From an uncultured candidate division Zixibacteria bacterium (GTDB lineage: Bacteria; Zixibacteria; MSB-5A5; UBA10806): a stretch of DNA of 64,000 bases. The stretch covers positions 1,248,001 through 1,312,000 of the forward strand of contig CAWDFP010000006.1 in assembly GCA_963801605.1 (NCBI GenBank), given 5' to 3'. Made by a program: the position numbers and the translations under genes. The first letter of the stretch is position 1, and each line of letters starts with the position of its first letter. Shown piece by piece: positions 1,571-45,371 of the stretch. The notes below the pieces were generated by a model. That model did no database searches, was not told the DNA's origin, and saw only the letters and a list, made by a program, of their open reading frames with translations.

Positions 1571-1759
1571 TCCCAAATTAGAGATAAAGTACTGTCAAAT
1601 TAATATATCCTTGCTCCTCTTTTCATAAGACTATCAGCGGTTAAGGCTATAACGGCGTAATTGGCGATAAGGCTTGACAATAGAAGAGCCCGTCATATCT
1701 TTACGCCGAATGAGTTCTGTATTCAATTGAACAAACCCGGAGCCATTCAGGCGGATCGA

Positions 1760-4700
1760 ATGTCATTATTCAAGCCTCAATTGTTAAATCTCTCTAAAAA
1801 TACTTCGATTTTTATAATCCTGATTTTTCCGATTCTATCAATCGTATCCCGCGGAAATGCCGCAGAAAAAGATATATGGGCTAAGGATCATTCGGAGAGC
1901 CTCATGCCCAAAGGGTCTGAATTGGACGAACTCCTCAATTTTGGCGGTCCGGATAGTTATGGCTACTATTTTTTTGATTCGCAGGATAGCGCTGCCAACG
2001 CTCCTCATTACCGCTGGGTAGAATTGGCGGCAATCGGCGACAGCATAAATTTATATGAGGACGATCAGATATCCAGTTCACTTGCTATCGGCTTCCCGTT
2101 TTTCTTTTATAACCAGAACTTTACGACTTTTAGAATCTGCTCCAACGGTTGGATAAGTTTCAACTCGACAATCCCCAGCTATCAGAATCGTCCTATTCCC
2201 ACCGCCGACGAGCCCAATAATCTTTTGGCTGCTTTCTGGGACGACCTGGTGCAGGATTCCGGAATGGTCTATTATTATACCAATAATACCGATACCTGCA
2301 TTGTGGAATGGCGTAATTATCACCATTACAACGCCGTCGGCAATTACACTTTCGAAATAATTTTAACCCGTGACAACAGTATCCATTTCCAATATCAGCA
2401 TCTGAGTGGCATACTCGATTCACACACCATCGGCATCGAAAATTCATCCGGCTCATCGGGATTGCAATATGTCTACAATAGCTATCTTGATGAAACAGGC
2501 AGATCGGTTTACTTCGGTACACGCCCGCCGCATTATGCCACTCACGACGTCATGCCATCGGCAATCAGATCGCCCGGGGTCAGAGGTCTGGTGCGCATCG
2601 CAATTGCCCCCTCGATCAGATTCACCAACGCCGGAAACGTATCCGAAACTTTCGATGGCCGCGTAATAATTTCCCATAACGGCGAGCTTTACAATCAGGT
2701 CCGACATCTAACTTCACTTCGTTCCGACAGTTCTCTGCAAGTTTCATTTCCGGCATTCGCGCCGACCGACACCGGCTCTTATCAGATCGTGGCGATAAGC
2801 CAGTTGGCAACCGATTTACTGCCGCGCAACGATACGATCAGTATGTCCTATTTCGCTTATGGGGCCATGATATCGCAAAATTTCGAAACCAATTCCGGCT
2901 CATTTCTGGGCAACCACGATTGGCAATGGGGAACCGCTACGCGCGGGCCGAGTAGCGCTCATTCGGGCGTTAAGGTATGGGGAACGATATTGAACGGCAA
3001 TTATACGGTTGGTCCCCTGCTTTCGACTTTATATTCCGATACTCTTTTCTTAAGCGATAGCGCCATCCTTACATTCTGGCAATGGCATAACACCGAAGCC
3101 CTTTTCGATGGCGGCAATGTCAAGATTTCTACTGACGACGGCATTAACTGGACGCTCTTAACTCCCGAGGGCGGGTACGATGGAGTGCTTTCCAACGCTT
3201 TTGAAAACCCAATGGGGGGACAGCCGGCATTTTTCGGCATTTCGCCGGGCTGGATAATGGAAACTATCGATCTTTCATCGTATGCGGGTACAACCGCCAT
3301 AATAAGATTCGATTTCGGCTCGGATAATTCCGGGGTGTCAACCGGCTGGTATATTGATGATTTCGCTCTAATAGACGGAGGATTGGCAAAGCCCGGTTGG
3401 ATTAGTGGCGTTGTTAGAAATGATTCTGCCCGCGCCATTCCGGGGGCAATGATTCGAGCCGGAAATCGAAATCGTGCTGCCGATTCACTGGGCCGTTATT
3501 TTTTGGAAATCATTCCGGGGACCTATTCCGTTACAGCCTCCGCGCCGTATCATAATACTCTTACATCAAGTGGAATTGTGGTCTATGCCAGCGATACCAC
3601 ATCCCTTGATTTCGCTCTGACTGCTCCGCGTATCGCAGTAGATACCGCGGCTATCGATACCTCATTACGGCAGGAACAAACTATCGATTTTACTCGCCAG
3701 ATCACCAACAATGGAAGCGGCCCGCTTGATTTTAATATCAGAATAAATAGCGAAAATATCATCCCCAAGAACGGTCGGGGAAAGCTCGATGCGAATGGCA
3801 GAGATAACCCCGATAATCCGCCTCAAATTGCTGATTTCGGAGACGAGTCTTTCATATTCGATCCGCAGACTCCCACTCAGGATGACGGCTGCGTTGGAGT
3901 GGAGTTTGACGGCAAATATTTCTGGGTTACGGGACGGCATGGGATCGACGAGTTCCACAAGCTTCACAAATTCAACGCCTCCGGTGAACTAATTGAATCG
4001 TTTGAACAAAACACCCGCTCCGTGTGGGGCTGGCGAGATCTGGCTTTCGATGGCCGCTACCTGTATGCCTCCGATGAAAATGGGCTGGCCGTGATCGATA
4101 CTGCCACCGGGCAAAAAATTGACACTCTTCATGCTCCATCGGGCATTCCGTTGCCCTTGCGCGCCCTGGCTTATGATCCTCGAAATGATCATTTCTGGAC
4201 GGCCAACTTCTCATCCAACATTATTGAATTTGACCGTACCGGCCAAACGATCAGGTCTTTTCCCAATGACCGCCATATCTTCGGCCTGGCCTGGGATGAT
4301 GCCTCCATCGATGGCCCCTGGCTTTGGGTTTTCTCGCAGGATAGTATCCCGCCACTGAAAGTTTCGCAGTTTGATCCCAGAAATGGCGTCTTTACCAATG
4401 TCACCTTTAGCGCCATCGATCATAATGGAGGCGATCCTGATCTGGCAGGAGGCGCCTGTTTTACAACCGAGTGGAATCAGTCCAAAGGCATTTTATTTTG
4501 CATGGTTATGGGACGAACCGATCCTTTCAATATTTTAGACCGAGTTCAGGGATATGAAATCACTCCTGTTAGACGATGGTTGCGGGTAGATCCAATGTCC
4601 GGCACAATCGCACCCGGCGGCAGCCAGGATTTATCAATCTCATTAGATTTCAGTGATTCGCTCTTCACCGCCGATTCGCTCTATCGCGGCGCAATTTCTA

Positions 4701-5050
4701 TCCTCAATAATGGGCCATACTCCCCAACCATTCCAATCACTGTTGGTTTGCTTTCGGATGTTTTGGAGAATGGGCAGACTTTGCCTCGCGAATTCAGTCT
4801 GGAGCAGAACTACCCCAACCCGTTTAATTCCTCAACGATAATCAACTTCTCATTACCGCGAGAATCTGCTGTCAGGCTCGAGGTTTTTAATATCCTGGGG
4901 CAAAAGGTCGTAACTTTGATCGATAAGCGCCTTCAGTCGGGATATTACAGCGTAAATTGGGATGCCAACGACGTGGCATCAGGTGTCTACTATTATCATT
5001 TATCTGCCGATAACGCCTCTCAAATCGGCAAAATGACTCTTCTAAAATAA
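1760..5050 (+). CDS. Large secreted multidomain protein (NIDO-like, Ig/CARDB-like, MAM/immune-inhibitor-like, carboxypeptidase-regulatory-like, beta-propeller) with T9SS type-A/FlgD-like C-terminal domain
   Basis: Hydrophobic N-terminus; GGPDSYGY, GWYIDD motifs; C-terminal FSLEQNYPNPFNSST...GVYYYHL...KMTLLK. Start uncertain (ORF open from 1661). Confidence 0.75.
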   Translation: MSLFKPQLLNLSKNTSIFIILIFPILSIVSRGNAAEKDIWAKDHSESLMPKGSELDELLNFGGPDSYGYYFFDSQDSAANAPHYRWVELAAIGDSINLYEDDQISSSLAIGFPFFFYNQNFTTFRICSNGWISFNSTIPSYQNRPIPTADEPNNLLAAFWDDLVQDSGMVYYYTNNTDTCIVEWRNYHHYNAVGNYTFEIILTRDNSIHFQYQHLSGILDSHTIGIENSSGSSGLQYVYNSYLDETGRSVYFGTRPPHYATHDVMPSAIRSPGVRGLVRIAIAPSIRFTNAGNVSETFDGRVIISHNGELYNQVRHLTSLRSDSSLQVSFPAFAPTDTGSYQIVAISQLATDLLPRNDTISMSYFAYGAMISQNFETNSGSFLGNHDWQWGTATRGPSSAHSGVKVWGTILNGNYTVGPLLSTLYSDTLFLSDSAILTFWQWHNTEALFDGGNVKISTDDGINWTLLTPEGGYDGVLSNAFENPMGGQPAFFGISPGWIMETIDLSSYAGTTAIIRFDFGSDNSGVSTGWYIDDFALIDGGLAKPGWISGVVRNDSARAIPGAMIRAGNRNRAADSLGRYFLEIIPGTYSVTASAPYHNTLTSSGIVVYASDTTSLDFALTAPRIAVDTAAIDTSLRQEQTIDFTRQITNNGSGPLDFNIRINSENIIPKNGRGKLDANGRDNPDNPPQIADFGDESFIFDPQTPTQDDGCVGVEFDGKYFWVTGRHGIDEFHKLHKFNASGELIESFEQNTRSVWGWRDLAFDGRYLYASDENGLAVIDTATGQKIDTLHAPSGIPLPLRALAYDPRNDHFWTANFSSNIIEFDRTGQTIRSFPNDRHIFGLAWDDASIDGPWLWVFSQDSIPPLKVSQFDPRNGVFTNVTFSAIDHNGGDPDLAGGACFTTEWNQSKGILFCMVMGRTDPFNILDRVQGYEITPVRRWLRVDPMSGTIAPGGSQDLSISLDFSDSLFTADSLYRGAISILNNGPYSPTIPITVGLLSDVLENGQTLPREFSLEQNYPNPFNSSTIINFSLPRESAVRLEVFNILGQKVVTLIDKRLQSGYYSVNWDANDVASGVYYYHLSADNASQIGKMTLLK

Positions 5051-5108
5051 CCGGCTTAATTTAAATATTATGTAAACATTTCTATAGATGTGCCGAAACA
5101 GATATTGT

Positions 5109-6032
5109 ATGGTTACGTCTATGCCAGAGAGCCTGCAGCGCTACCTCGATTACCTCAGTCTCGAGAGAGGCTTAGCTAATATGAGTCTCGAATCCTATCG
5201 CAACGATATTGAGAAGTTTCGTCATTATCTCGAAGAGCGTAAGCTTGCTCCGGATAAGCTGCGGCAAACGGACTTGACCGGCTTTCTCGAATACTTGCGT
5301 AAGAGCGGCATGGCGCCCAGTTCTATTGCCAGAAATTTGAGCTCCATTAAGGGATTTTTTCGCTTCTTAAAAAAATCCGGCGAAACTAACAGCAACCCGG
5401 CCGAGTCAATAACCGGCCCCAAGCTTTTCAGGCCGCATCCCGGAGCACTTTCGGTCGATGATGTCTTTAAGCTTTTGGATGGCGCCAGGCTGGCTCGTAA
5501 AAGCGATAAGACCAAAAAATGTATGGTGCTTCGGGACCAGGCGCTTTTGGAATTCCTCTACGGCACCGGGGCCAGAGTATCCGAGGCCGCCAATGCTAAG
5601 AAGGCCGACCTTTATTCCGAGATGGGACTTGTCAGGCTCTTCGGCAAAGGGAGCAAGGAGCGAGTGGTTCCAATGGGCAAAGTGGCCTGGGCGGCGGTGA
5701 AAGAATATCTCGATGGTTGCAGGCCCAAGCTGGTCGGAGCTCTAAGCGCCGATTACCTGTTTCTGAATAATCGCGGCGGGCAACTCTCTCGTATGGGGAT
5801 TTGGAAGATACTCAATAAATATGTGACCCTGGCAGGCATCACAAAAAATGTCAGTCCGCATACGCTCAGGCATAGCTTTGCAACTCATCTTTTGGCTGGT
5901 GGGGCGGATTTAATTGCAGTTCAGGAGCTTTTGGGTCACGCTGATATCACTACAACCGAAATATACACACATCTCGATAACGATTTCTTAATCTCTGAGC
6001 ATCGGGAGTTCCATCCCAGGGAAAAATGGTAA
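5109..6032 (+). CDS. xerD: Tyrosine recombinase XerD
   Basis: LSLERGLA N-terminus, LYGTGARVSE, GKGSKER, HTLRHSFATH, LLGHADITTTEIYTH; start approximate. Confidence 0.9.
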   Translation: MVTSMPESLQRYLDYLSLERGLANMSLESYRNDIEKFRHYLEERKLAPDKLRQTDLTGFLEYLRKSGMAPSSIARNLSSIKGFFRFLKKSGETNSNPAESITGPKLFRPHPGALSVDDVFKLLDGARLARKSDKTKKCMVLRDQALLEFLYGTGARVSEAANAKKADLYSEMGLVRLFGKGSKERVVPMGKVAWAAVKEYLDGCRPKLVGALSADYLFLNNRGGQLSRMGIWKILNKYVTLAGITKNVSPHTLRHSFATHLLAGGADLIAVQELLGHADITTTEIYTHLDNDFLISEHREFHPREKW

Positions 6033-7006
6033 CGCTTTTAGAAAGAGAAGTTGGCCACGAGGCCAGGGTACAATCGCATAAATTACATTGCGGTTTATGC
6101 CAGCGCAATGTTGCCATCGAGGCAATGTTGACTGCTTCGCTTTCCGGTTACGAGGTCGTCATCCATCACTTCGATACCATCAGCGCTCTCTATGAACAGA
6201 ACCAGCGTTCCTATATCGATCTGATCGTCTTTGCGGCCGGCGAGGACCCCGAATGGTTGATGCCCTTAGTGCGCGAGATAAAGGCTCACTCAATTCTGCA
6301 ATTTATCCCCATACTGATCTTTGCGCCGGCGGCGGGGAAAAATTATGTTGTTGAGGCCTACCGCTTGGGAGTCGAGGAGTGCATTACCGGTTTCTGGGAT
6401 CATCAAATCGAGGCTGCCAAGATTGAGATGCTGATATTCCGTTCGCGGCGCGATCTGAGCGTCAACCCATCCTCGAAACTGCCCGGCCCCAACGCCATCG
6501 AATATGAGATCGATAAACGCCTCCAGATCGGTGATAAGTTCGCGGTCTGCTATGGCGATCTCGATAATTTTAAAGCTTATAACGATTATTACGGTTATGT
6601 TTATGGCGATAAAATGATTCGGATAACGTCGCTGATCATCCGCAACGTTGTACAGGATTTAACGCCGCAGGGATTTGTGGGGCATATCGGCGGTGACGAT
6701 TTTATCTGGATTGTGCCGGTGGAGATGGTGGACCCCATCTGCAAAAACATAATCGCTACCTTCGATCGCATGGTGCCGTTTCGCTACGCCGAAACTGATC
6801 GAAATCGCGGCTGGATCGAGGTTGCCAACCGTCGCGACGTGGTGGAACGATTCCCGATCATGAGCATCTCTATCGCTGTGATAATCAATCAGAAGCGGAT
6901 GTTCAAACATCCCGGCGAGATGAGCCACATGATGGCCGATCTCAAGAAATACACCAAATCCCTGCCCGGCTCCAACTACATGGTTGAGCGCCGCAAAAAA
7001 TATTAA
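6026..7006 (+). CDS. Degenerate receiver domain + GGDEF-family (GGDDF) protein
   Basis: DLDNFKAYNDYYG and GHIGGDDF motifs; REC-like N-terminal region. Confidence 0.8.
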   Translation: MVTLLEREVGHEARVQSHKLHCGLCQRNVAIEAMLTASLSGYEVVIHHFDTISALYEQNQRSYIDLIVFAAGEDPEWLMPLVREIKAHSILQFIPILIFAPAAGKNYVVEAYRLGVEECITGFWDHQIEAAKIEMLIFRSRRDLSVNPSSKLPGPNAIEYEIDKRLQIGDKFAVCYGDLDNFKAYNDYYGYVYGDKMIRITSLIIRNVVQDLTPQGFVGHIGGDDFIWIVPVEMVDPICKNIIATFDRMVPFRYAETDRNRGWIEVANRRDVVERFPIMSISIAVIINQKRMFKHPGEMSHMMADLKKYTKSLPGSNYMVERRKKY

Positions 7007-7038: not shown

Positions 7039-7282
7039 GTCAGGTCGCCTGCGACCTGACTCTTTTTGATGGCGCATTTTATGCGCGCGAAAAAGTAGCC
7101 GGGGGTCCCTGTGGTCCCCGGCTTATTTTTCATCTTTGGCTGTAGCATCAGGTCCCCGAACCTGATGCATAGGGTAGGTCGGGTTCCGGCGGTGGCATGC
7201 TTCCCGAGTCCCTTGGACGAGGAAAGCTTGTGCAGGGCTAAATGAAAATAAAAATGGCGCCAGGCCGTTTGACCTGACGCCA
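7039..7282. repeat. Cluster of REP-like palindromes (BIME-like)
   Basis: Hairpins at 7039-7060, 7095-7123 (GTAG-led), 7142-7168 (GTAG-led), 7174-7209 (GTAG-led, imperfect) and 7255-7282. Confidence 0.65.
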
Positions 7283-7303
7283 CTTGTAACTCGTAACTCT
7301 CTC

Positions 7304-8552
7304 TTACATCCCGTACATCTCGATAATCTCTTTTTTGCCTTTGCCAAGAATATTGTATTTGGCGCCGACTTTCGTGAAGGCGGCAATAGCCAGATCGAGA
7401 TGATGACTTCTCATGCGCCGCTGAAAGCTGGGTGCGAATCCTGGCCGCGCCTTTGGGCACCACCGGGAAGAAGAATCCTACCGCGTAAATCCCTTCGGCG
7501 TAAAGATCGCGGGCGAAATCCTGAGCCAGCTTGGCGTTGTAGAGCATTACCGGCACGATCGGGCTGTCGCCTTCTTTAAGATCGAATCCGGCTTTCTCCA
7601 AAGCGCTTCGCCAATATTTTGTATTCCATTCCAGCTTATCGCGACGTTCGGTGGTTTTGGAAATCAGGTCCAGCACCCGAATCGCTCCCGCCACTATCAC
7701 CGGCGCTACAGTATTGGAGAATAGATACGGTCTGGCGCGTTGACGGCACAGCTCCACCAACTCGCGACGACCGCTGACACAGCCACCCGATGCGCCGCCG
7801 AGCGCCTTGCCCAATGTGGTTGTGATGATATCGATCTTGCCGACTACGCCGCAATGCTCGTGCGTACCGCGACCGGTCTTGCCGATAAAGCCCGATGAGT
7901 GCGATTCATCGACAAATACCATCGAATCATATTTTTCGGCCAACGCCACAATCTCGTCAAGCTTGGCCAGGTCGCCATCCATTGAGAAAACGCCATCGGT
8001 GATAATCATCCGGAAACGCTTATCCTGATGTTCCTGAAGCTTTTCCTCGAGATGCCCCATATCGGAATGCTTATAGGTGTCCTGCATCGCTTTGCAGAGA
8101 CGCATACCATCGACAATCGAGGCATGCACCAGGCGATCGGCTATCATGATATCTTTATCTGTTAAAATTGCCTCGAAAACGCCGGCGTTGGCATCCATAC
8201 AGGATGGAAACAGCAGGGTGTCCTCGGTGCCGAGGAAGGTTGTCAGCTTGCTTTCCAGTTGACGGTGAATATCCTGGGTGCCGCAGATAAAACGTACCGA
8301 TGACATTCCGTAGCCGCGGGAATCAAGTCCCTCATGCGCCGCTTTGATAACCTCGGGATGGCTCGATAGCCCGAGATAATTATTAGCGCACATATTGATT
8401 ACTTTTTTAAGCTCGGCGCCGTTGGGAAATTCCACCACAATATCGGCGTTCTGAGGAGCGTGAATATAGCGCTCCTCCTTGAAAATCCCGGCATCCTTAA
8501 TACCACGAATTTCAGTTTGATATATTTCGCGGGATTTATCACTGTAAGCCAC
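7304..8552 (-). CDS. kbl: Glycine C-acetyltransferase (2-amino-3-ketobutyrate CoA ligase)-like PLP enzyme, copy 1; +1 frameshift near 7406
   Basis: [37 protein letters not shown]. Removing one base at ~7406 restores ...AAHEKHHLDLAIAAFTKVG...EMYGM* ending at 7304. Confidence 0.85.
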
Positions 8553-8611
8553 GCTTACCTCCTAACATCAACATTTTACGAATTGATCAAATTCTACGCC
8601 AGGTTCGCAAG

Positions 8612-8869
8612 TTATGCTTTTGTGAATCGATTTACCAAATCCACAATTTTGTTGACCGAATCGAATGCTTCCGGCGATGCATCGGCATCCGGTATTGTGA
8701 TAGTGTATTTCCGTTCCAGGAACCGCTTGAGCGAAACCATCGAAAAGGAATCGACGATACCGCCTGAAATGAGCGGGGTGTTCTCGTCCACAGTACGGTC
8801 ATCATCTTCTTCCAGATATTCACGTTTGACGTAGTCCAGTACGACCTTTTTCATCTCATCCATACTCAT
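8612..8869 (-). CDS. Acyl carrier protein
   Basis: 85 aa, acidic, LISGGIVDSFSMV phosphopantetheine-attachment Ser motif. Confidence 0.9.
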   Translation of the reverse strand: MSMDEMKKVVLDYVKREYLEEDDDRTVDENTPLISGGIVDSFSMVSLKRFLERKYTITIPDADASPEAFDSVNKIVDLVNRFTKA

Positions 8870-8971
8870 TCATCCTTTCAGAAATATTGTTAATATTATT
8901 ATTTTTCAATTTCCTTATCACTTACCGGATATTTTCATCCGATAAATGTATGACCCGCGACTCATGACTCC

Positions 8972-10678
8972 CTAATCATTTTCAAGAGTCGAAATATCGC
9001 CGATCGGCTCGCCCCATTCCTGGGCGCGTAATACTCGACGCATAATCTTGCCGCTCCTGGTTTTGGGCAGCGATTTTACAAATTCGATCTCCTGCGGCAT
9101 TGCCAATGGCGACAGCCTCTTTCTGATAAAATTCATGATCTCGAGTTCCAGATCGTCACCGGGTTCAAAACCGGGCTTTACTGCTACAAATGCCTTAACC
9201 ACTTCCATATTGACCGGATCAGGCTTGCCCACGGCTGCCGATTCCGCTACCGCCGGATGTTCCAACAGCGCCGATTCTATCTCGAACGGCCCTACCAGGT
9301 GACCGCCGGTGTTGATAACATCATCATCGCGGCCGACAAACCAGTAATAACCCTCTGCGTCGATACTGGCTCTGTCGCCGCACAAATACCAACCATTCTT
9401 GAATTTATTTTTATATATCTCTTCGTTTTTCCAATAAGTGCGGAACATCGAGGGCCACCCCGGACGAAGCGCTATCAGGCCAACCGTGCCGACATTATTG
9501 ATCGGCTCGAATGTCTTGGGATTGACCACCGTGGCGGTTATGCCGGGGAATGGTTTGCCCATCGAACCGGGTTTAATCGGCATACCGGGATAGTTGGTAA
9601 TAACTATTGAACCGGTTTCGGTTTGCCAGAATGTGTCGTGGAACATCTTCCCAAACGCCTCTTTCGACCAGATGACCGCCTCGGCATTTAGAGGCTCGCC
9701 TACGCTGCAGAGATGACGAAGACAGCTTAGGTCAAACTTTCTGACCAGATCAGTGCCGTCACGCATTAAAAGCCTGATGGCCGTGGGGGCTGAATACCAG
9801 ACCGTGATTTTATGTTTTTGAATGAAGGCGTACCATTTCTCGGAACTGAAACCCGCATCGAGCACTGCCTGCGTTACGCCGTTTACCCAGGGCCCGATAA
9901 TTCCATAGGATGTGCCCGTTACCCAGCCGGGATCGGCATTACACCAGTAGATATCATCGTCTTGTAGATCGAGTACCCATTTGGATGTTAGGTATTGCGA
10001 GATAAGCGAATAATGCACATGTTGGGCGCCCTTTGGCTGGCCGGTAGTCCCCGATGTGTAATGCAGCACTGACGGCGTCTCCGCTACTGAGGGGTAAGCA
10101 TCCCAATTTTCCACGCGAGGCTCGGTTTCCATATTGAAAGCGACCTCACGTTCGCGAAGCAGCGAGGAATCATCTGCATCAACTACAATGATATGCCGAA
10201 TTTCGGGTAGCTGCTTTAGTATTTTGCGCACTTTCGCGACATGCTTTTTCTGAGTCAGTATTGCTGATGTTTTAGCGTTATCAAGTCTCGTAAACAGAGA
10301 TTCATCGCCGAATGCCGAAAATAACGGTTGGGCAATTCCGCCCATCTTGAGGATTCCCAAAAACGAAATATAAAGCTCCGGTACTCTATCCATGAAAATG
10401 CAGATGCGCTCGCCCGGCTTGAGACCCAATTTGGTGAAGAAGCTGGCAAAAGTATTCGAGAGTAGGCGAAGATCGTTGTAGGTAAATGTTTTATTATTGC
10501 CAAGATGATCTTCCCAAATCATCGCTTTCTTGGCGCCTTTGCCCTGGTTGCAGATACGATCGCTGCAGTACCATCCGATATTTATTTTATCGCCTTTTTT
10601 GTATCCAAGCTCTTTTTCGGAAATTGACCAATCAAATCCCTTTAATCTCTGTTCATACGATTCAATGTTTGACATCAC
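8972..10678 (-). CDS. acsA: Acetate--CoA ligase-like AMP-forming adenylation enzyme
   Basis: YTSGTTGQPKG, DTFWQTETG, GRDDDVIN, LPKTRSGKIMRR. Confidence 0.85.
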   Translation of the reverse strand: MMSNIESYEQRLKGFDWSISEKELGYKKGDKINIGWYCSDRICNQGKGAKKAMIWEDHLGNNKTFTYNDLRLLSNTFASFFTKLGLKPGERICIFMDRVPELYISFLGILKMGGIAQPLFSAFGDESLFTRLDNAKTSAILTQKKHVAKVRKILKQLPEIRHIIVVDADDSSLLREREVAFNMETEPRVENWDAYPSVAETPSVLHYTSGTTGQPKGAQHVHYSLISQYLTSKWVLDLQDDDIYWCNADPGWVTGTSYGIIGPWVNGVTQAVLDAGFSSEKWYAFIQKHKITVWYSAPTAIRLLMRDGTDLVRKFDLSCLRHLCSVGEPLNAEAVIWSKEAFGKMFHDTFWQTETGSIVITNYPGMPIKPGSMGKPFPGITATVVNPKTFEPINNVGTVGLIALRPGWPSMFRTYWKNEEIYKNKFKNGWYLCGDRASIDAEGYYWFVGRDDDVINTGGHLVGPFEIESALLEHPAVAESAAVGKPDPVNMEVVKAFVAVKPGFEPGDDLELEIMNFIRKRLSPLAMPQEIEFVKSLPKTRSGKIMRRVLRAQEWGEPIGDISTLEND

Positions 10679-10702
10679 TTTTCCCTCTAATCATGTACGA
10701 AT

Positions 10703-11080
10703 TTATGATTCCAATATCACATTTGCCGAGGCCCATTCTGCGGTATGCGACAAAGAGACGAAGATATTTTTTATCCCCAGCCGCTTGGCCGTTTCCCGCA
10801 CCCCACCGCATAGTATAATAAACGGTTGACCGTTTTCCCTGTTTTGTATATCGATTTCAAGCCAGGACATTTCCGGCGTCAAACCGGTTGAAAGAGCCTT
10901 GAGTAACGCTTCCTTGGCGGCAAACCTGGCTGCAAAATGACGTTCGGGATAGCGCTTGCATTCGCAGTAAGATATTTCTCCCTGCGTAAATATACTGTCT
11001 TTGATGCCGGAACCGTTGCGATCAAGCTCGCGACGCATTCTGGCGACTTCAAAAATATCATTGCCAATCCCGACGATCAT
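10703..11080 (-). CDS. acpS: Holo-ACP synthase
   Basis: MIVGIGNDI, FAARFAAKEA, VSLSH. Confidence 0.92.
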   Translation of the reverse strand: MIVGIGNDIFEVARMRRELDRNGSGIKDSIFTQGEISYCECKRYPERHFAARFAAKEALLKALSTGLTPEMSWLEIDIQNRENGQPFIILCGGVRETAKRLGIKNIFVSLSHTAEWASANVILES

Positions 11081-11111
11081 CTCATTGTATTACCGAGTCT
11101 CTGTATTGTAT

Positions 11112-11145
11112 GCGTCAGGATGGAAAGCTTCCAACATCCAGACGC
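11112..11145. repeat. CGTC-type REP-like palindrome
   Basis: GCGTCAGGATG-N12-CATCCAGACGC; near-copy at 18599-18632. Confidence 0.6.
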
Positions 11146-11159
11146 CTAAACTCACAGCT

Positions 11160-12273
11160 CTACTTGCGCTTCATCGCTTCGTCCAATTCCTTTTTATCCG
11201 GGAACAGAACTATCTTACCGGCTTTTCTTTCCTTAAACGGCACCAGTAACTTGTCGAATCCAGCCGCAAAATCCTGAAGCGCCATTTTGTGTGTTACCAC
11301 CGGGGAAACATCAAGCCGTTTTGGATGCCAATAAATTCCTGACTCGATACCAGGTATCGAACATCTTACGTCCGTTGATACCATGAATCTGGCATCCTTT
11401 GAAAACGATACTGTTATTGTAATCGATTGTCATTGTAGGTTCAGATAACACCCCAAACGCTGAAAAGCGTCCGCCCTTGCGAAGCATCCCGAAACCTTCC
11501 TGGATCGCCTGCTGGACTCCTGCCATTTCCACAACAATATCAGCCCCATAGCCGAAGGTATGATCCTTGACATAGCTTATGCGATCAATCTTGGCGTCAT
11601 CAGCGTAAAGGATATGATCGGCTCCCATCCGACGGCCTAATTCGAGATTAAACGGGCTCATTCCAACCATAAAGATATTAGTGATGCCAACCGCGCGTGC
11701 CACACCCACCGCAAATAGCCCGATTGGGCCATCGCCTAAAATAACCATTGATTTGCCGGCCACGTCATTATCCTCGCCTAATACAGCGTAAGTGGCGTTA
11801 CCCAATGGTTCCTGAATCGTGGCATATTCCGGCGGGATCGATTTGTCATTCACCCAGCAAACCACCTCCGGGATAGCCACATACTCCGCGAAAACGCCGT
11901 CGCGATCCACACCCAGGATTTGCATTCTCTCACCCAGATGCATCTGGCCTAACAGCGCCTGCAAATCACCGGAATAGGGGATATGTGTTTCGGCGGAGAT
12001 GTAATCTCCAATCGCGATCTTTTTGACGAATTTGCCTTTATCGACAACTACGCCCGCCACTTCATGGCCGAGTATCTGAGGCAGGCCCTTGGCCCCGATC
12101 CTCTTGTCCGACCAATCATCCCATTTATAAATATGAACATCAGTTCCGCAAATGGATGTTGCGCTGACTTTTACCAGCACCTCATCATCACCTATAACTG
12201 GCAGCGGTACTTCCAGAAGCTCCGCACCTTTTTCCGCTTTGGTTTTCACCACGGCCATCATTTTTTCGGCCAT
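11160..12273 (-). CDS. tdh: L-threonine 3-dehydrogenase-like MDR zinc dehydrogenase; +1 frameshift at ~11320
   Basis: ICGTDVH, LGHEVAG, QEPLGNA, GDGPIG, GRKMFDTW; C-terminus (RLDVSPVVTHKM...GKIVL) continues in the shifted frame to 11160. Confidence 0.8.
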
Positions 12274-23341: not shown

Positions 23342-25020
23342 ATGATTAAATTTAATCATGTTTCGATTTCATTTCTAATGCTGCTTACATTCCTTATAAC
23401 CATTGCCTCTGTTTTCTCCGTTATACGCTCAATCCGGCGATACGGGAGAAGAATCCTACTGGATTTTCTTTACTCAAAAAAATTCATTTATCCCGGTGGA
23501 AATACCGCAACAGACTATGGATCGAAGGTTTATGCGCGCAGGATTGACAATCAGGAGCTGGTTCGATCTGCCTGTGGATGAAGCCTTTATCAATAATATC
23601 AGTTCGCGCGGCGGACATGTGAAAACTGTTTCACGATGGCTCAACGCCGTCAGCGTTAAAGCTGATCAGGAGGCGCTATCGCAAATCAGCGGCCTTTCGT
23701 ATGTTTCTAGAATTACTCGTGTAGCGGTATCCTCCAGGCCTCTTCCTCAATTTACTGAGGCAGCCTATTTTCCTGAAATTTCCATGATAACCGCATTCGA
23801 TTATGGCCCCTCATTCAAACAAATTTCTATGCTGGCGATAGATTCTCTGCATAATTCCGGCCTATCAGGCCACAATGTTAAAATCGGAATTATGGATACC
23901 GGCTTTGATACTACTCACGAAGCTTTTACTCAGATGGCCGCCGAACACCGTATTATTGCCACCCGAAATTTCCTGAGCGGTGGCGATGATGTCATGGGAA
24001 GCCCCACTGATATCCAAAGATCGCATGGTACCGCCGTGCTTTCGGTAATCGGAGGGTTTCATGAAGGAAATATTATCGGCCCCGCTTATGGCGCCGATTA
24101 TGTTTTGGCCAAAACGGAGTCGGTGAGCGTTGAAATGCGATTCGAAGAAGATGATTGGGTTGCCGCCTCTGAGTGGATGGAATCATTGGGAGTCGATATC
24201 ATTTCGTCATCCGTTGGTTATATCGATTGGTATGACACCACACAGCTTGATGGTCAAACTGCGATTATTACCCAGGCCGCCAATATTGCAAATCAGTTGG
24301 GAGTGGTTGTTGTCAATGCCGCTGGTAACGAGGGCAGCAATATCCGTTGGAGAAAGGTCACCCCGCCTGCCGATGGTGATTCCGTGATCGCTGCCGGTGC
24401 GGTTGATACCTCGGGCCTGGTGGCCGGCTTCTCCTCGCGCGGCCCTACCGCCGATGGCCGTATTAAGCCCGATGTCTGTGCGCTGGGAGTGAATGATTAC
24501 TTGGCTATCAGCAGCACCGACGGATATGGTCTATCTTCCGGTACTTCATACGCGGCCCCTTTGATAGCCGGAGGCATTGCGCTTCTGCTTGAGGGTCATC
24601 CCCAGTGGAGACTTGCCGATATCATTTCAAACCTCAAACAGGCATCATCTAATGCCGATGAGCCCAATAACGCCATGGGCTGGGGTTATCCCAATTTCGT
24701 TTCCGCTTATTTTGGATTGCCATTTCATCCACCGTCAGAAGTTCCGGAAGTTCTTACTTATTTTACCTCAACCGGCTCGCGATTCGGTGATCTTTAAAAT
24801 TATATTTGCCAATCCTGGTTCGGCAGTGCTTTCCGTCCATGACCTTTCAGGAGCCAAGGTGCAGGAATGGAGTATTACCGCTACTGAACCGTCAATCGTC
24901 ACCCAGGTTTGGGATGGGAAAAACCTTTCGCATGATAAAATCGCCTCCGGTATTTATATCTGCGTCCTGAAGCTCGGCGATACCGAATATCGTCAAAAGC
25001 TGGCTTATTTTTCTAGATAA
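23342..25020 (+). CDS. Secreted S8 subtilisin-like peptidase with FlgD-Ig/T9SS-like C-terminus; +1 frameshifts at ~23400 and ~24758
   Basis: Catalytic triad IMDTG, SHGT, GTSYAAP; signal peptide and C-terminal WDGKN...ASGIY lie in adjacent frames. Confidence 0.8.
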
Positions 25021-25095: not shown

Positions 25096-26308
25096 TTATA
25101 TCACTCCGTATTTTTTACCCACTCTCCTGAAGGCTTCAATCGCCATATCAAGTTGCTCTGTTGTATGAGCTGCGGAAATTTGCACCCTGATCCGCGATTG
25201 CCCCTTCGGTACCACCGGATACGAGAACCCGATCACATAAATGCCTTCAGCTAACATATCGCGTGCAAAATCCTGTGCCAGTTTGGCGTCATTAGGGAAT
25301 CGTCCAAACAAAATTGGCACTATGGGATGAATACCCGGCTTTATCTCAAACCCGGCGTTAGAAATCTCTTTACGGAAATATTGAGTGTTACGTTCCAGGC
25401 GGTCGCGAAGCTCGGTGCTTTCCCAGAGCATATTGATTGCCTCGATTCCGGCGGCTACTATCATTGGCGGCATCGTATTGGAAAACAGATACGGCCGGGC
25501 TTTTTGACGAAGCATATCTATTATCTCTTTACGACCGGATACACAACCGCCGCTGGCTCCGCCCAACGCCTTACCAAGAGTAGTGGTAATAATATCGATC
25601 TTGCCCATTACACCGCAATGCTCGATACTTCCGCGACCGGTACGCCCCATAAAACCGGTGGCGTGGGAATCATCTACCATTGTTAATGCCCCGTGCCGTT
25701 TTGCTATTTCTACGATTTGATCCAGCTTGGCAATATCGCCATCCATTGAAAAAACGCCATCGGTGGCGATCAGCTTAATCTTGGCCCCGCCTTTTTCGGC
25801 TTCCTCAAGCTGCAGTTCAAGGTCTTTCATGTCGCTATGCTCGTAGCGGAAGCGTTCGGCTTTGCAGAGCCTGATGCCATCTATAATCGAGGCGTGATTG
25901 AGTGCATCCGAGATAATCGCATCCTGACCGCTGAGGATAGCCTCGAATAATCCTCCATTAGCGTCAAAACAGGATGAAAACAGGATCGTGTCGGCCGTGC
26001 CCAGAAATTCGCTGATCGTATCCTCGAGCTTTTTATGCAGGTCCTGCGTTCCGCAAATGAACCTTACCGATGACAACCCAAAACCATGCGTATCGAGCGC
26101 CCGCTTGGCAGCCGTCTATTAACCTGGGATGATTGCCTAACCCCAGGTAGTTGTTGGCGCACATATTGATAACCTCGCGGCCCGGCGCCACCGTTATTTT
26201 GGCTCCTTGCGGGCTGGTGATTACCCGTTCCTCTTTGAACAAACCTTGATTCCTGATGTCATTCAAAGTGGTGCTTAAATTATCGAGTTTTACAGTATCC
26301 ATATCCAA
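25096..26308 (-). CDS. kbl: Glycine C-acetyltransferase, copy 2 (stand-alone); +1 frameshift at ~26112
   Basis: [44 protein letters not shown]. Confidence 0.88.
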
Positions 26309-45081: not shown

Positions 45082-45255
45082 GATTATTAAATATAGGATG
45101 TCATAGTATAAAGGCAATAAAAAAGACCGGGCTAAGCGCCAGATGAGTCTATACAATAATTTGAATATATATAAATTAACCATGATTTAGACTATGCCAT
45201 CCCCGGCCATACTATTAGCTTGCGATAAGTCGCCGGCAACTATTATAATCGGTGT

Positions 45256-45348
45256 GGAAGAGGATGGGGTCTGGTGGCCCCCGCGGCCTTCAAAGCCGTA
45301 GGCGGTCGGTGTTCCCGGTCGCGGGAGGTTCGAGTCCTCCCCCTTCCG
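45256..45348 (+). tRNA. selC: tRNA-Sec (UCA), CCA not encoded
   Basis: 6-bp D stem with UGGU loop, anticodon loop CUUCAAA, 8-bp variable stem, T arm GGAGG-TTCGAGT-CCTCC, G discriminator; upstream of selD/A/B. Confidence 0.92.
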
Positions 45349-45371
45349 CTTTTTTATCAGGCATACTTCAA

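What the first reader, a model, noticed from the sequence alone, without database searches (positions are those of the whole stretch)
7304..12273. Candidate ACP-tethered glycine/acetate/threonine pathway: tdh-like, acpS, acetate ligase, ACP, kbl-like
Seen: five co-oriented genes in which a PPTase, an AMP-forming acetate ligase and a free-standing ACP sit between a Tdh-like and a Kbl-like gene. A second stand-alone kbl lies at 25096-26308. Established: canonical Tdh/Kbl threonine cleavage uses free CoA and needs no ACP or AcpS. Ligase + ACP + alpha-oxoamine synthase is the logic of Caulobacter-type bacterial sphingolipid synthesis. Inference: the acyl group travels on a dedicated ACP. Either (a) acetate to acetyl-ACP plus glycine gives 2-amino-3-oxobutanoate, reduced to threonine or aminopropanol; (b) CoA-independent threonine catabolism recovers ATP by reversing the ligase; or (c) a short amino-alcohol product is made. 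I know of no described system with this composition.
Basis: partly seen in the sequence, partly recalled or inferred. Interest (0 to 1): 0.82.

Follow-up and report, generated by a model that had tools for sequence, protein, structure and literature searches.

The report
Carrier-protein version of threonine-glycine enzyme Kbl
A four-gene set (a small carrier protein, the enzyme that arms it, an acetate-activating enzyme and a special copy of the threonine/glycine enzyme Kbl) recurs almost unchanged in uncultured bacteria of many phyla and likely handles acetyl groups on a private carrier instead of coenzyme A, which would let a normally threonine-degrading reaction be pushed towards synthesis.

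Summary
Five co-oriented genes span 7304-12273. tdh, kbl1 and the second kbl each carry one frameshift, probably assembly errors. The conserved unit has four genes, (acpS)-acs-ACP-kbl: kbl follows the ACP in 92 of 92 loci, acs adjoins in 80 of 93 and acpS in 61 of 85. A threonine dehydrogenase is present in only 11 of 94. Ligase-ACP and AcpS-ACP fusions occur in independent assemblies. The cassette Kbl is its own clade. It keeps the glycine gate, lacks a basic CoA-site residue and has Arg where E. coli BioF has Arg130. The ligase keeps the acetate pocket and gains a basic patch. Acetyl transfer on the private carrier is likely (about 0.85), but untested. Direction is open. I favour acetate + glycine to 2-amino-3-oxobutanoate, then threonine (0.42), over ATP-recovering threonine cleavage (0.30). 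Hosts are broad amino-acid auxotrophs and some also make threonine canonically, but a third have a soluble pyrophosphatase. It works like AasR-AcpR-SPT but is not a sphingolipid system. No description was found in the searches run. This scan found the same cassette before in other genomes (8 notes listed).

The parts
11160..12273 (-). Zn-type L-threonine 3-dehydrogenase-like gene, accessory to the cassette; catalytic-Zn motifs kept, all four structural-Zn cysteines missing; one frameshift near 11320
   Evidence: intact 81% identical orthologue in G004 (L016); a 73% identical Cys-less Tdh sits next to a canonical kbl in G015 (L121)
10703..11080 (-). AcpS-type phosphopantetheinyl transferase, second copy in the genome (the other, at C6:1120244, is 39% identical)
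   Evidence: upstream of the ligase in 61 of 85 loci; fused to the carrier in P0130, P0133, P0134
8972..10675 (-). AMP-forming acetate ligase, B. subtilis AcsA type; acetate pocket kept; clade-specific basic patch at residues 141-157; predicted acetate:carrier ligase
   Evidence: fused to the carrier in P0126-P0129 and relatives
8612..8863 (-). Free-standing acidic carrier protein, 83 aa, Ser in the DSFS motif; resembles stand-alone PCP/DltC-type carriers, not AcpP
   Evidence: DSFS in 95 of 95 carrier sequences; housekeeping AcpP is at C11:153083
7304..8552 (-). Kbl1, glycine C-acetyltransferase of the cassette clade (415 aa in relatives); one frameshift near 7420
7252..7285 (-). Terminator-like hairpin (15 pairs, T-rich tail) closing the operon
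   Evidence: consensus match only
25096..26308 (-). Kbl2, canonical CoA-type Kbl outside the cassette clade; one frameshift near 26115

Best explanation
The acpS-acs-ACP-kbl genes form a conserved module in which AcpS likely arms the private carrier, the ligase likely loads it with acetate at the cost of ATP to AMP + PPi, and Kbl1 would condense acetyl-carrier with glycine to 2-amino-3-oxobutanoate, which a threonine dehydrogenase would reduce to threonine. Shown: gene content, linkage, fusions, separate clades, retained glycine and acetate specificity residues, changed CoA-site residues. Inferred: carrier use (about 0.85), direction and end product. Rationale: a carrier pool kept apart from CoA can be driven to a very high acetyl:thiol ratio, which is what the uphill condensation needs, while a separate CoA-type Kbl handles ordinary cleavage.
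For: Linkage: kbl after the carrier in 92 of 92 loci, ligase adjacent in 80 of 93, acpS in 61 of 85, in MAGs labelled with at least 12 phylum-level names. Full-length ligase-carrier fusions in five distinct sequences (P0128, P0297, P0300, P0306, P0129) and AcpS-carrier fusions. Kbl1 clade 83 of 83, support 0.997. Position 157, by count from the catalytic His the equivalent of hsALAS2 Lys299 at the succinyl-CoA adenine site, is Arg in 31 of 32 other Kbls and Q/T/H/N in 79 of 82 cassette Kbls. Position 140 is R/K in 82 of 82 cassette Kbls against A/S/T/E in 31 of 32, and aligns with E. coli BioF Arg130. Val86 (ThAOS Val79 glycine gate) is kept in 82 of 82. Ligase residues 141-157 have median net charge +5 against +1 in 78 other ligases; the carrier has median -5. 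Precedent runs forward: AasR-AcpR-SPT (PMC9386255). A second Kbl is kept in 38 of 50 cross-phylum genomes and 7 of 19 relatives. A Tdh is found in 17 of 19 cassette-bearing relatives; homoserine dehydrogenase in 0 of 19. Family I pyrophosphatase is present in 19 of 59 cassette genomes, and G000 has acetate kinase, so ATP recovery does not need the cassette. An estimate from recalled energies gives synthesis at -4 to -22 kJ/mol at high energy charge and low PPi, against +10 to +12 with a CoA pool.
Against: Hosts look like general amino-acid auxotrophs: hisD in 1 of 19 cassette-bearing relatives and 2 of 61 overall. Homoserine dehydrogenase is also missing from 38 of 42 relatives without the cassette, so its absence is not a specific gap. 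26 of 50 cross-phylum cassette genomes have homoserine dehydrogenase, and 5 have it next to an above-cut-off thrC (G071, G074, G078, G080, G098). Tdh lies in only 11 of 94 loci, and often sits beside a different kbl. In 4 loci (L016, L027, L029, L031) a CoA-type kbl follows Kbl1 on the same strand, which would undo the condensation if co-expressed. G000 has a membrane pyrophosphatase and neither soluble family was found (genome 86.9% complete), so PPi may be high and the same estimate turns positive. The ligase passes a curated acetate--CoA ligase cut-off. The role of BioF Arg130 in ACP binding is recalled; the paper was not held.
Confidence: 0.42

Rival explanations
1. Same carrier-bound chemistry, run the other way. 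Tdh oxidises threonine, Kbl1 cleaves the product onto the carrier, and the ligase turns acetyl-carrier + AMP + PPi into acetate + ATP. The private pool would capture thiolysis energy and work without free CoA. The module may be reversible and set by energy charge.
For: Hosts lack hisD and homoserine dehydrogenase, consistent with peptide fermenters. The cassette Kbl is the only above- or near-cut-off Kbl in 11 of 19 relatives and in 12 of 50 cross-phylum genomes, one of which has a partial second copy. No threonine dehydratase was found in 0 of 5 tested. In G004 the cassette sits between tdh and the canonical kbl. G000 has a membrane pyrophosphatase and no soluble one was found, as in Syntrophus aciditrophicus, whose AMP-forming Acs makes ATP (PMC4992975). 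40 of 59 cassette genomes lack a family I pyrophosphatase hit.
Against: Family I pyrophosphatase is present in 19 of 59 cassette genomes, with no depletion against relatives without the cassette (4 of 19 vs 4 of 21). Acetate kinase was found in 3 of 5 tested. 38 of 50 keep a second Kbl, often beside tdh, that could already do the cleavage. The described ligase-carrier-oxoamine synthase module read here runs forward. The loop linked to ATP-forming bias in SaAcs1 (PMC13404658) is absent from this ligase type, so it could not be tested.
Confidence: 0.3
2. Forward acetyl loading, but the useful product is not threonine. It is aminoacetone or aminopropanol after decarboxylation, or acetyl-carrier used as acetyl donor by an unlinked enzyme.
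For: Tdh is absent from 83 of 94 loci. 2-amino-3-oxobutanoate decays to aminoacetone (PMC9814548, listing and passages). Asn142 next to the catalytic His and Phe119 are changed in the clade. An earlier scan note (e1-9841510) links such a carrier to an MBOAT in another genome.
Against: No conserved sixth gene: neighbour clusters are lineage-bound, and 63 of 105 co-oriented flanking ORFs scanned show no shared family and no MBOAT. CobD/CbiB was not found in G000. Two unrelated Tdh families were recruited next to the cassette.
Confidence: 0.14
3. Ordinary enzymes: the ligase and Kbl1 use CoA, and the carrier is incidental or only regulatory.
For: Both pass curated CoA-enzyme cut-offs. Their closest solved relatives are CoA enzymes. 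Arg151 at the CoA site is kept. One locus (G055, L026) has no ligase near the carrier, and 8 of 92 lack it within 4.5 kb.
Against: Carrier-kbl linkage in 92 of 92 loci, a dedicated AcpS, two kinds of fusion, an invariant carrier Ser and clade-specific changes at the CoA site. G000 has a separate canonical Acs and Kbl.
Confidence: 0.12

Closest known systems
AasR-AcpR-serine palmitoyltransferase module of Caulobacter and other Rhodobacteria (PMC9386255)
   Same: ANL-family ligase, dedicated stand-alone carrier and alpha-oxoamine synthase, co-encoded; there the ligase acylates the carrier and not CoA.
   Different: Long-chain fatty acid and serine give a sphingoid base there. Here the ligase has an acetate pocket and the synthase is a glycine-gated Kbl (SPT families score 217-309 bits against cut-offs of 500-670). 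A private AcpS is included and no lipid-tailoring gene is conserved.
Tdh-Kbl threonine pathway (E. coli 1FC4, Cupriavidus necator 7BXP)
   Same: Kbl1 is 53-54% identical with the same fold and catalytic residues. Tdh is adjacent in some hosts.
   Different: The canonical pair uses free CoA and has no carrier, PPTase or ligase. Kbl1 has changed CoA-site residues and a C-terminal extension.
Bacillus subtilis AcsA (9G79) and Syntrophus aciditrophicus Acs1
   Same: Same AMP-forming family (about 50% identity class; 569 bits to 9G79). Acs1 shows that the ATP-forming direction can be physiological.
   Different: Both use CoA. The cassette ligase forms its own clade with a basic patch and hydrophobic C-domain changes, and occurs fused to a carrier.
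E. coli BioF with pimeloyl-ACP (crosslinked structure 8DLE, title seen)
   Same: An oxoamine synthase that works with an ACP thioester; shares the D-R-L-x-H-A-S motif and lacks the basic residue 14 places after the His.
   Different: Uses housekeeping AcpP, alanine and a C7 diacid, decarboxylates, and is only 31% identical.
Stand-alone adenylation enzyme plus carrier pairs (DltA/DltC, PigI/PigG, PltF/PltL)
   Same: The carrier's best solved matches include PigG, PltL and DltC.
   Different: Those load amino acids for envelope or natural-product pathways (recalled); none is paired with Kbl.

Membership tests
Kbl (glycine C-acetyltransferase) | TIGR01822 above cut-off, PLP and substrate residues (N57, H143, D192, D215, H218, K249, R373) | tested here: met
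   565 bits vs 493; each residue 82 of 82
Kbl (glycine C-acetyltransferase) | Valine gate for glycine | tested here: met
   V86 in 82 of 82; role from PMC11906848 passages
Kbl (glycine C-acetyltransferase) | Canonical CoA-site residues (N142, R157, small residue at 140) | tested here: not met
   V142 in 81 of 82; position 157 Q/T/H/N in 79 of 82; position 140 R/K in 82 of 82
Kbl (glycine C-acetyltransferase) | Activity with acetyl-CoA | not testable with these tools
   needs assay
AMP-forming acetyl-CoA synthetase (AcsA type) | Family score, acetate pocket and catalytic lysine | tested here: met
   NF003313 761 vs 729; ADPGWVTG, SVGEP, WQTETG and PKTRSGKI conserved; residue roles recalled from Salmonella Acs
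AMP-forming acetyl-CoA synthetase (AcsA type) | CoA-binding loop with R191/R194 | tested here: inconclusive
   Loop absent here but also absent in B. subtilis AcsA; loop described in PMC13404658
AMP-forming acetyl-CoA synthetase (AcsA type) | CoA is the thiol acceptor | not testable with these tools
   needs assay; fusions and linkage point to the carrier
AasR-AcpR-SPT sphingolipid module | Ligase, dedicated carrier and oxoamine synthase co-encoded | tested here: met
AasR-AcpR-SPT sphingolipid module | Synthase is a serine palmitoyltransferase and the ligase takes long-chain acids | tested here: not met
   SPT models far below cut-off and Kbl model above; long-chain ligase models below cut-off
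AasR-AcpR-SPT sphingolipid module | Ligase acylates the carrier but not CoA | not testable with these tools
   needs assay
Zn-dependent L-threonine 3-dehydrogenase | Family score and catalytic-Zn motifs | tested here: inconclusive
   Best family, but 334 bits (frameshifted) and 351-375 for intact orthologues against a cut-off of 458; CGTDxH and GHE present
Zn-dependent L-threonine 3-dehydrogenase | Four structural-Zn cysteines | tested here: not met
   0 of 4 in the window and in L016, L017, L121; 3-4 in other relatives
Housekeeping AcpP of fatty-acid synthesis | TIGR00517 above cut-off | tested here: not met
   19.6 bits vs 70.45; the true AcpP is at C11:153083

The most novel reading that the evidence does not exclude
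A widespread primary-metabolic pathway in which a CoA-independent acetyl-carrier pool couples the threonine/glycine C-C bond directly to the ATP/AMP + PPi state. It makes threonine from acetate and glycine when energy is high, and yields ATP from AMP and PPi during threonine fermentation when energy is low. It would be both an undescribed threonine biosynthesis route and an undescribed form of substrate-level phosphorylation on a protein carrier.
Probability: 0.25. Interest if true: 0.85.

Novelty: new variant of a known kind. Interest (0 to 1): 0.66.

Why it matters
Pipelines label all four genes as housekeeping (acpS, acetyl-CoA synthetase, ACP, kbl), so the unit is invisible and genome models of many uncultured anaerobes would mis-assign its fluxes. 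If the carrier replaces CoA, it extends the dedicated-carrier strategy from lipids and natural products to a two-carbon central reaction. It would then give either a short threonine route from acetate and glycine in apparent auxotrophs, or a PPi-using way to make ATP. It also offers an acetate:carrier ligase and a carrier-specific Kbl as CoA-orthogonal parts for engineering, and four small soluble proteins make it directly testable in vitro.

Tried and rejected
Five-gene system with Tdh as core: rejected, Tdh is in 11 of 94 loci.
Sphingolipid or natural-product cluster: rejected, by family scores and the lack of a conserved sixth gene (63 of 105 co-oriented flanking ORFs were scanned).
Replacement of the aspartate route to threonine as sole role: weakened. 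The G000 thrC-like hit at C6:72323 lies in what reads as a nucleobase-catabolism cluster (my reading of the sequences).
Aminopropanol for cobalamin: CobD/CbiB not found in G000.
Glycine plus acetate fermented through threonine dehydratase: 0 of 5 genomes have it.
Glycine reductase GrdA: search uninformative, the controls were silent.
Loss of the A8-loop Arg in the ligase as a marker: rejected, it also occurs in unlinked ligases.
Cys-less Tdh as cassette-specific: rejected, it also sits beside a canonical kbl in G015.
Codon bias as a proxy for expression: uninformative, the bias is too weak.
Fold of the natural ligase-carrier fusion P0128: pLDDT 88.9, pTM 0.78; Foldseek returned only Acs enzymes and says nothing about docking.
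Sequencing runs: none was listed.
Plasmids: only distant carriers, under 60% identity.
Literature: 0 papers hold 'acyl carrier protein' + 'glycine C-acetyltransferase' + 'acetyl-CoA synthetase'; none of the 25 listed of 58 holds 'acetyl-ACP'; one unrelated paper (checked). Searches found no readable source for BioF Arg130 or R. capsulatus Lys156. Most subscription journals are not in the library.
Full report
1. Observation. The five genes are present and co-oriented on the minus strand from 12273 to 7304, with short gaps and a terminator-like hairpin after kbl1. The ligase passes NF003313 (761 vs 729 bits), Kbl1 passes TIGR01822 (565 vs 493) and AcpS passes TIGR00516. The 83-aa carrier passes no curated family; its solved look-alikes include the stand-alone carriers PigG, PltL and DltC. 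tdh, kbl1 and kbl2 each carry one frameshift against intact G004 orthologues of 79-87% identity. rpoB is also in four pieces in this assembly, so these are probably assembly errors. The genome (3.06 Mb, 86.9% complete) is unnamed; its same-family relative G004 matches a record titled candidate division Zixibacteria (L032). It also has a canonical Acs, a second AcpS, a housekeeping AcpP and Kbl2, so the cassette duplicates housekeeping functions.

2. Conservation. The carrier has at least 8000 relatives at E <= 0.001, the best 120 at 76% identity or more. It is found at high identity in 19 of 61 genomes (own plus relatives). I mapped 94 loci: 16 relatives plus 80, minus duplicates L032 and L052. 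Kbl follows the carrier in 92 of 92 with enough flank. The ligase is adjacent in 80 of 93 and within 4.5 kb in 84 of 92; acpS is present in 61 of 85. The loci were picked by the carrier alone, so these counts are not circular, but they cover only carriers of about 63% identity or more. A Zn-type Tdh is in 7 of 77 loci with enough flank, and an SDR-type Tdh in 4 more: 11 of 94. No other neighbour recurs across lineages. A Pfam scan of 63 of 105 co-oriented flanking ORFs shows arbitrary genes. The module is four genes and self-contained.

3. Evidence that the carrier replaces CoA (inferred, about 0.85). Fusions: ligase-carrier of 659-664 aa in five distinct sequences and AcpS-carrier of 231-239 aa in several assemblies. 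Apparent carrier-Kbl fusions look like frameshift artefacts and are not counted. The carrier Ser motif is invariant (95 of 95) and the protein is acidic. Cassette Kbls form one clade (83 of 83, FastTree support 0.997) nested among canonical Kbls, with Kbl2 outside. Cassette ligases do likewise (75 of 75, 0.985). Both sets were delimited by identity to the window proteins, so monophyly is partly by construction. Comparing 82 cassette with 32 other Kbls (two distant synthases, L070 and L078, left out), catalytic residues and the Val86 glycine gate are identical in all, but the CoA entry differs: A140R, N142V, and R157 to Q/T. Position 157 corresponds, counting 14 residues from the catalytic His without gaps, to hsALAS2 Lys299, which PMC7272653 places at the succinyl-CoA adenine site (passages). 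The other residue named there, Arg293 (R151 here), is kept. Arg140 aligns with E. coli BioF Arg130, and BioF also lacks the basic residue at 157. E. coli makes pimeloyl-ACP (PMC9544090 passages) and a BioF-ACP crosslinked structure exists (8DLE); that Arg130 contacts ACP is recalled and not checked. The ligase keeps the acetate-pocket motifs and carries a conserved basic segment (residues 141-157, median +5 vs +1 in 78 other ligases) plus hydrophobic C-domain changes. No complex model was obtained.

4. Direction. An estimate from recalled standard energies shows the sum acetate + glycine + NADH + ATP = threonine + NAD+ + AMP + PPi to be near equilibrium. It is favourable at high energy charge and low PPi (-4 to -22 kJ/mol) and unfavourable at low charge and high PPi (+1 to +18). 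With a CoA pool at ratio 1-3, synthesis is +10 to +12. A private pool therefore has a rationale either way. For synthesis: the precedent AasR-AcpR-SPT runs forward (PMC9386255 abstract and sections 14-15). A second Kbl is kept in 38 of 50 and 7 of 19 genomes, often with its own tdh (my tally of hits of 395 bits or more). Homoserine dehydrogenase is in 0 of 19 and Tdh in 17 of 19. Family I pyrophosphatase is in 19 of 59, with no depletion against controls (4 of 19 vs 4 of 21; 40 of the 50 cross-phylum genomes and 21 of 42 controls were searched). Acetate kinase is in 3 of 5. For catabolism: hisD is in only 1 of 19 and 2 of 61, and homoserine dehydrogenase is missing from 38 of 42 controls too. 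It is present in 26 of 50 cross-phylum genomes and next to thrC in 5. Kbl1 is the sole Kbl in 11 of 19, and a CoA-type kbl follows Kbl1 in 4 loci. G000 has a membrane pyrophosphatase and no soluble one was found, as in S. aciditrophicus (PMC4992975 passages). The bias loop of SaAcs1 (PMC13404658, parts 1-2 of 5) is absent from this ligase type. These are incomplete MAGs and kin are not independent. I commit to synthesis at 0.42, catabolism 0.30, another product 0.14 and ordinary CoA enzymes 0.12. That E. coli Tdh and Kbl can make threonine from glycine and acetyl-CoA is recalled, not read here.

5. Comparison. It works like AasR-AcpR-SPT but fails membership: the synthase is a Kbl and the ligase is acetate-type. 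Kbl1 is a Kbl by family score and glycine gate but fails the canonical CoA-site pattern. The Tdh is closest to Zn-type threonine dehydrogenases but scores under the cut-off and lacks the structural-Zn cysteines. Its pairing with a canonical kbl in G015 supports the Tdh call.

6. Novelty. Searches found no description of this gene set; the library lacks most subscription journals, and no supplements were read. Also seen, not used for a claim: PMC9814548 (passages), PMC13674496 (passages), 10.1101/2022.09.28.509898 (passages), PMC10979478 (passages). The scan's own notes list the same cassette in other genomes (8 shown), with the same open direction; my reading was entered before I saw them and they are not independent evidence. 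Verdict: real, widespread, apparently undescribed, a new variant of the ligase-carrier-oxoamine synthase kind applied to primary metabolism. Interest 0.66.

Noticed in passing
G000-G060: Relatives of this class almost all lack homoserine dehydrogenase (4 of 61 have it) and hisD (2 of 61), yet most carry Tdh and a Kbl: broad amino-acid auxotrophy.
   Followed up: partly
window 11160-12273; L016, L017, L121: A Tdh subgroup has lost all four structural-Zn cysteines (loop ETHIPYSGDLQALLGQ) while keeping the catalytic-Zn motifs; two others keep only three (L023, L146).
   Followed up: partly
L026 (G055:C42): tdh-acpS-carrier-kbl with no ligase in 17 kb; several Aminicenantes loci also have the ligase displaced or absent.
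   Followed up: no
L051, L064, L066, L076, L077, L082, L086, L087, L093, L094: A tandem universal stress protein gene lies near, mostly just upstream of, the cassette in 10 acidobacterial loci.
   Followed up: no
L078:6425-7666; G054:C22:39881-41077: An extra, distant oxoamine synthase (about 35% to Kbl1) lies directly upstream of, or near, the cassette.
   Followed up: no
G000:C6:870557-877110 and C10:20575-23284: Two other ligase-plus-carrier systems in the genome; the C6 one has AsnB-like and NadE-like neighbours and sugar-modifying genes (my reading). Both ligases are in two pieces.
   Followed up: no
G000:C6:72323-73573: A thrC-like gene above the TIGR00260 cut-off sits in an apparent nucleobase-catabolism cluster in a genome with no homoserine dehydrogenase hit.
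   Followed up: partly
window 45255-45349 (C6:1293255): tRNA-Sec gene.
   Followed up: no
window 23403-25020; G000:C6:1494604-1498138: A subtilase and rpoB are split across frames, like tdh and both kbl genes: frequent indel errors in this assembly.
   Followed up: partly
window 1661-7006: Convergent neighbours: a 1129-aa secreted protein with a C-terminal sorting-type tail, a XerD-like recombinase and a GGDEF protein; not conserved beside the cassette elsewhere.
   Followed up: no
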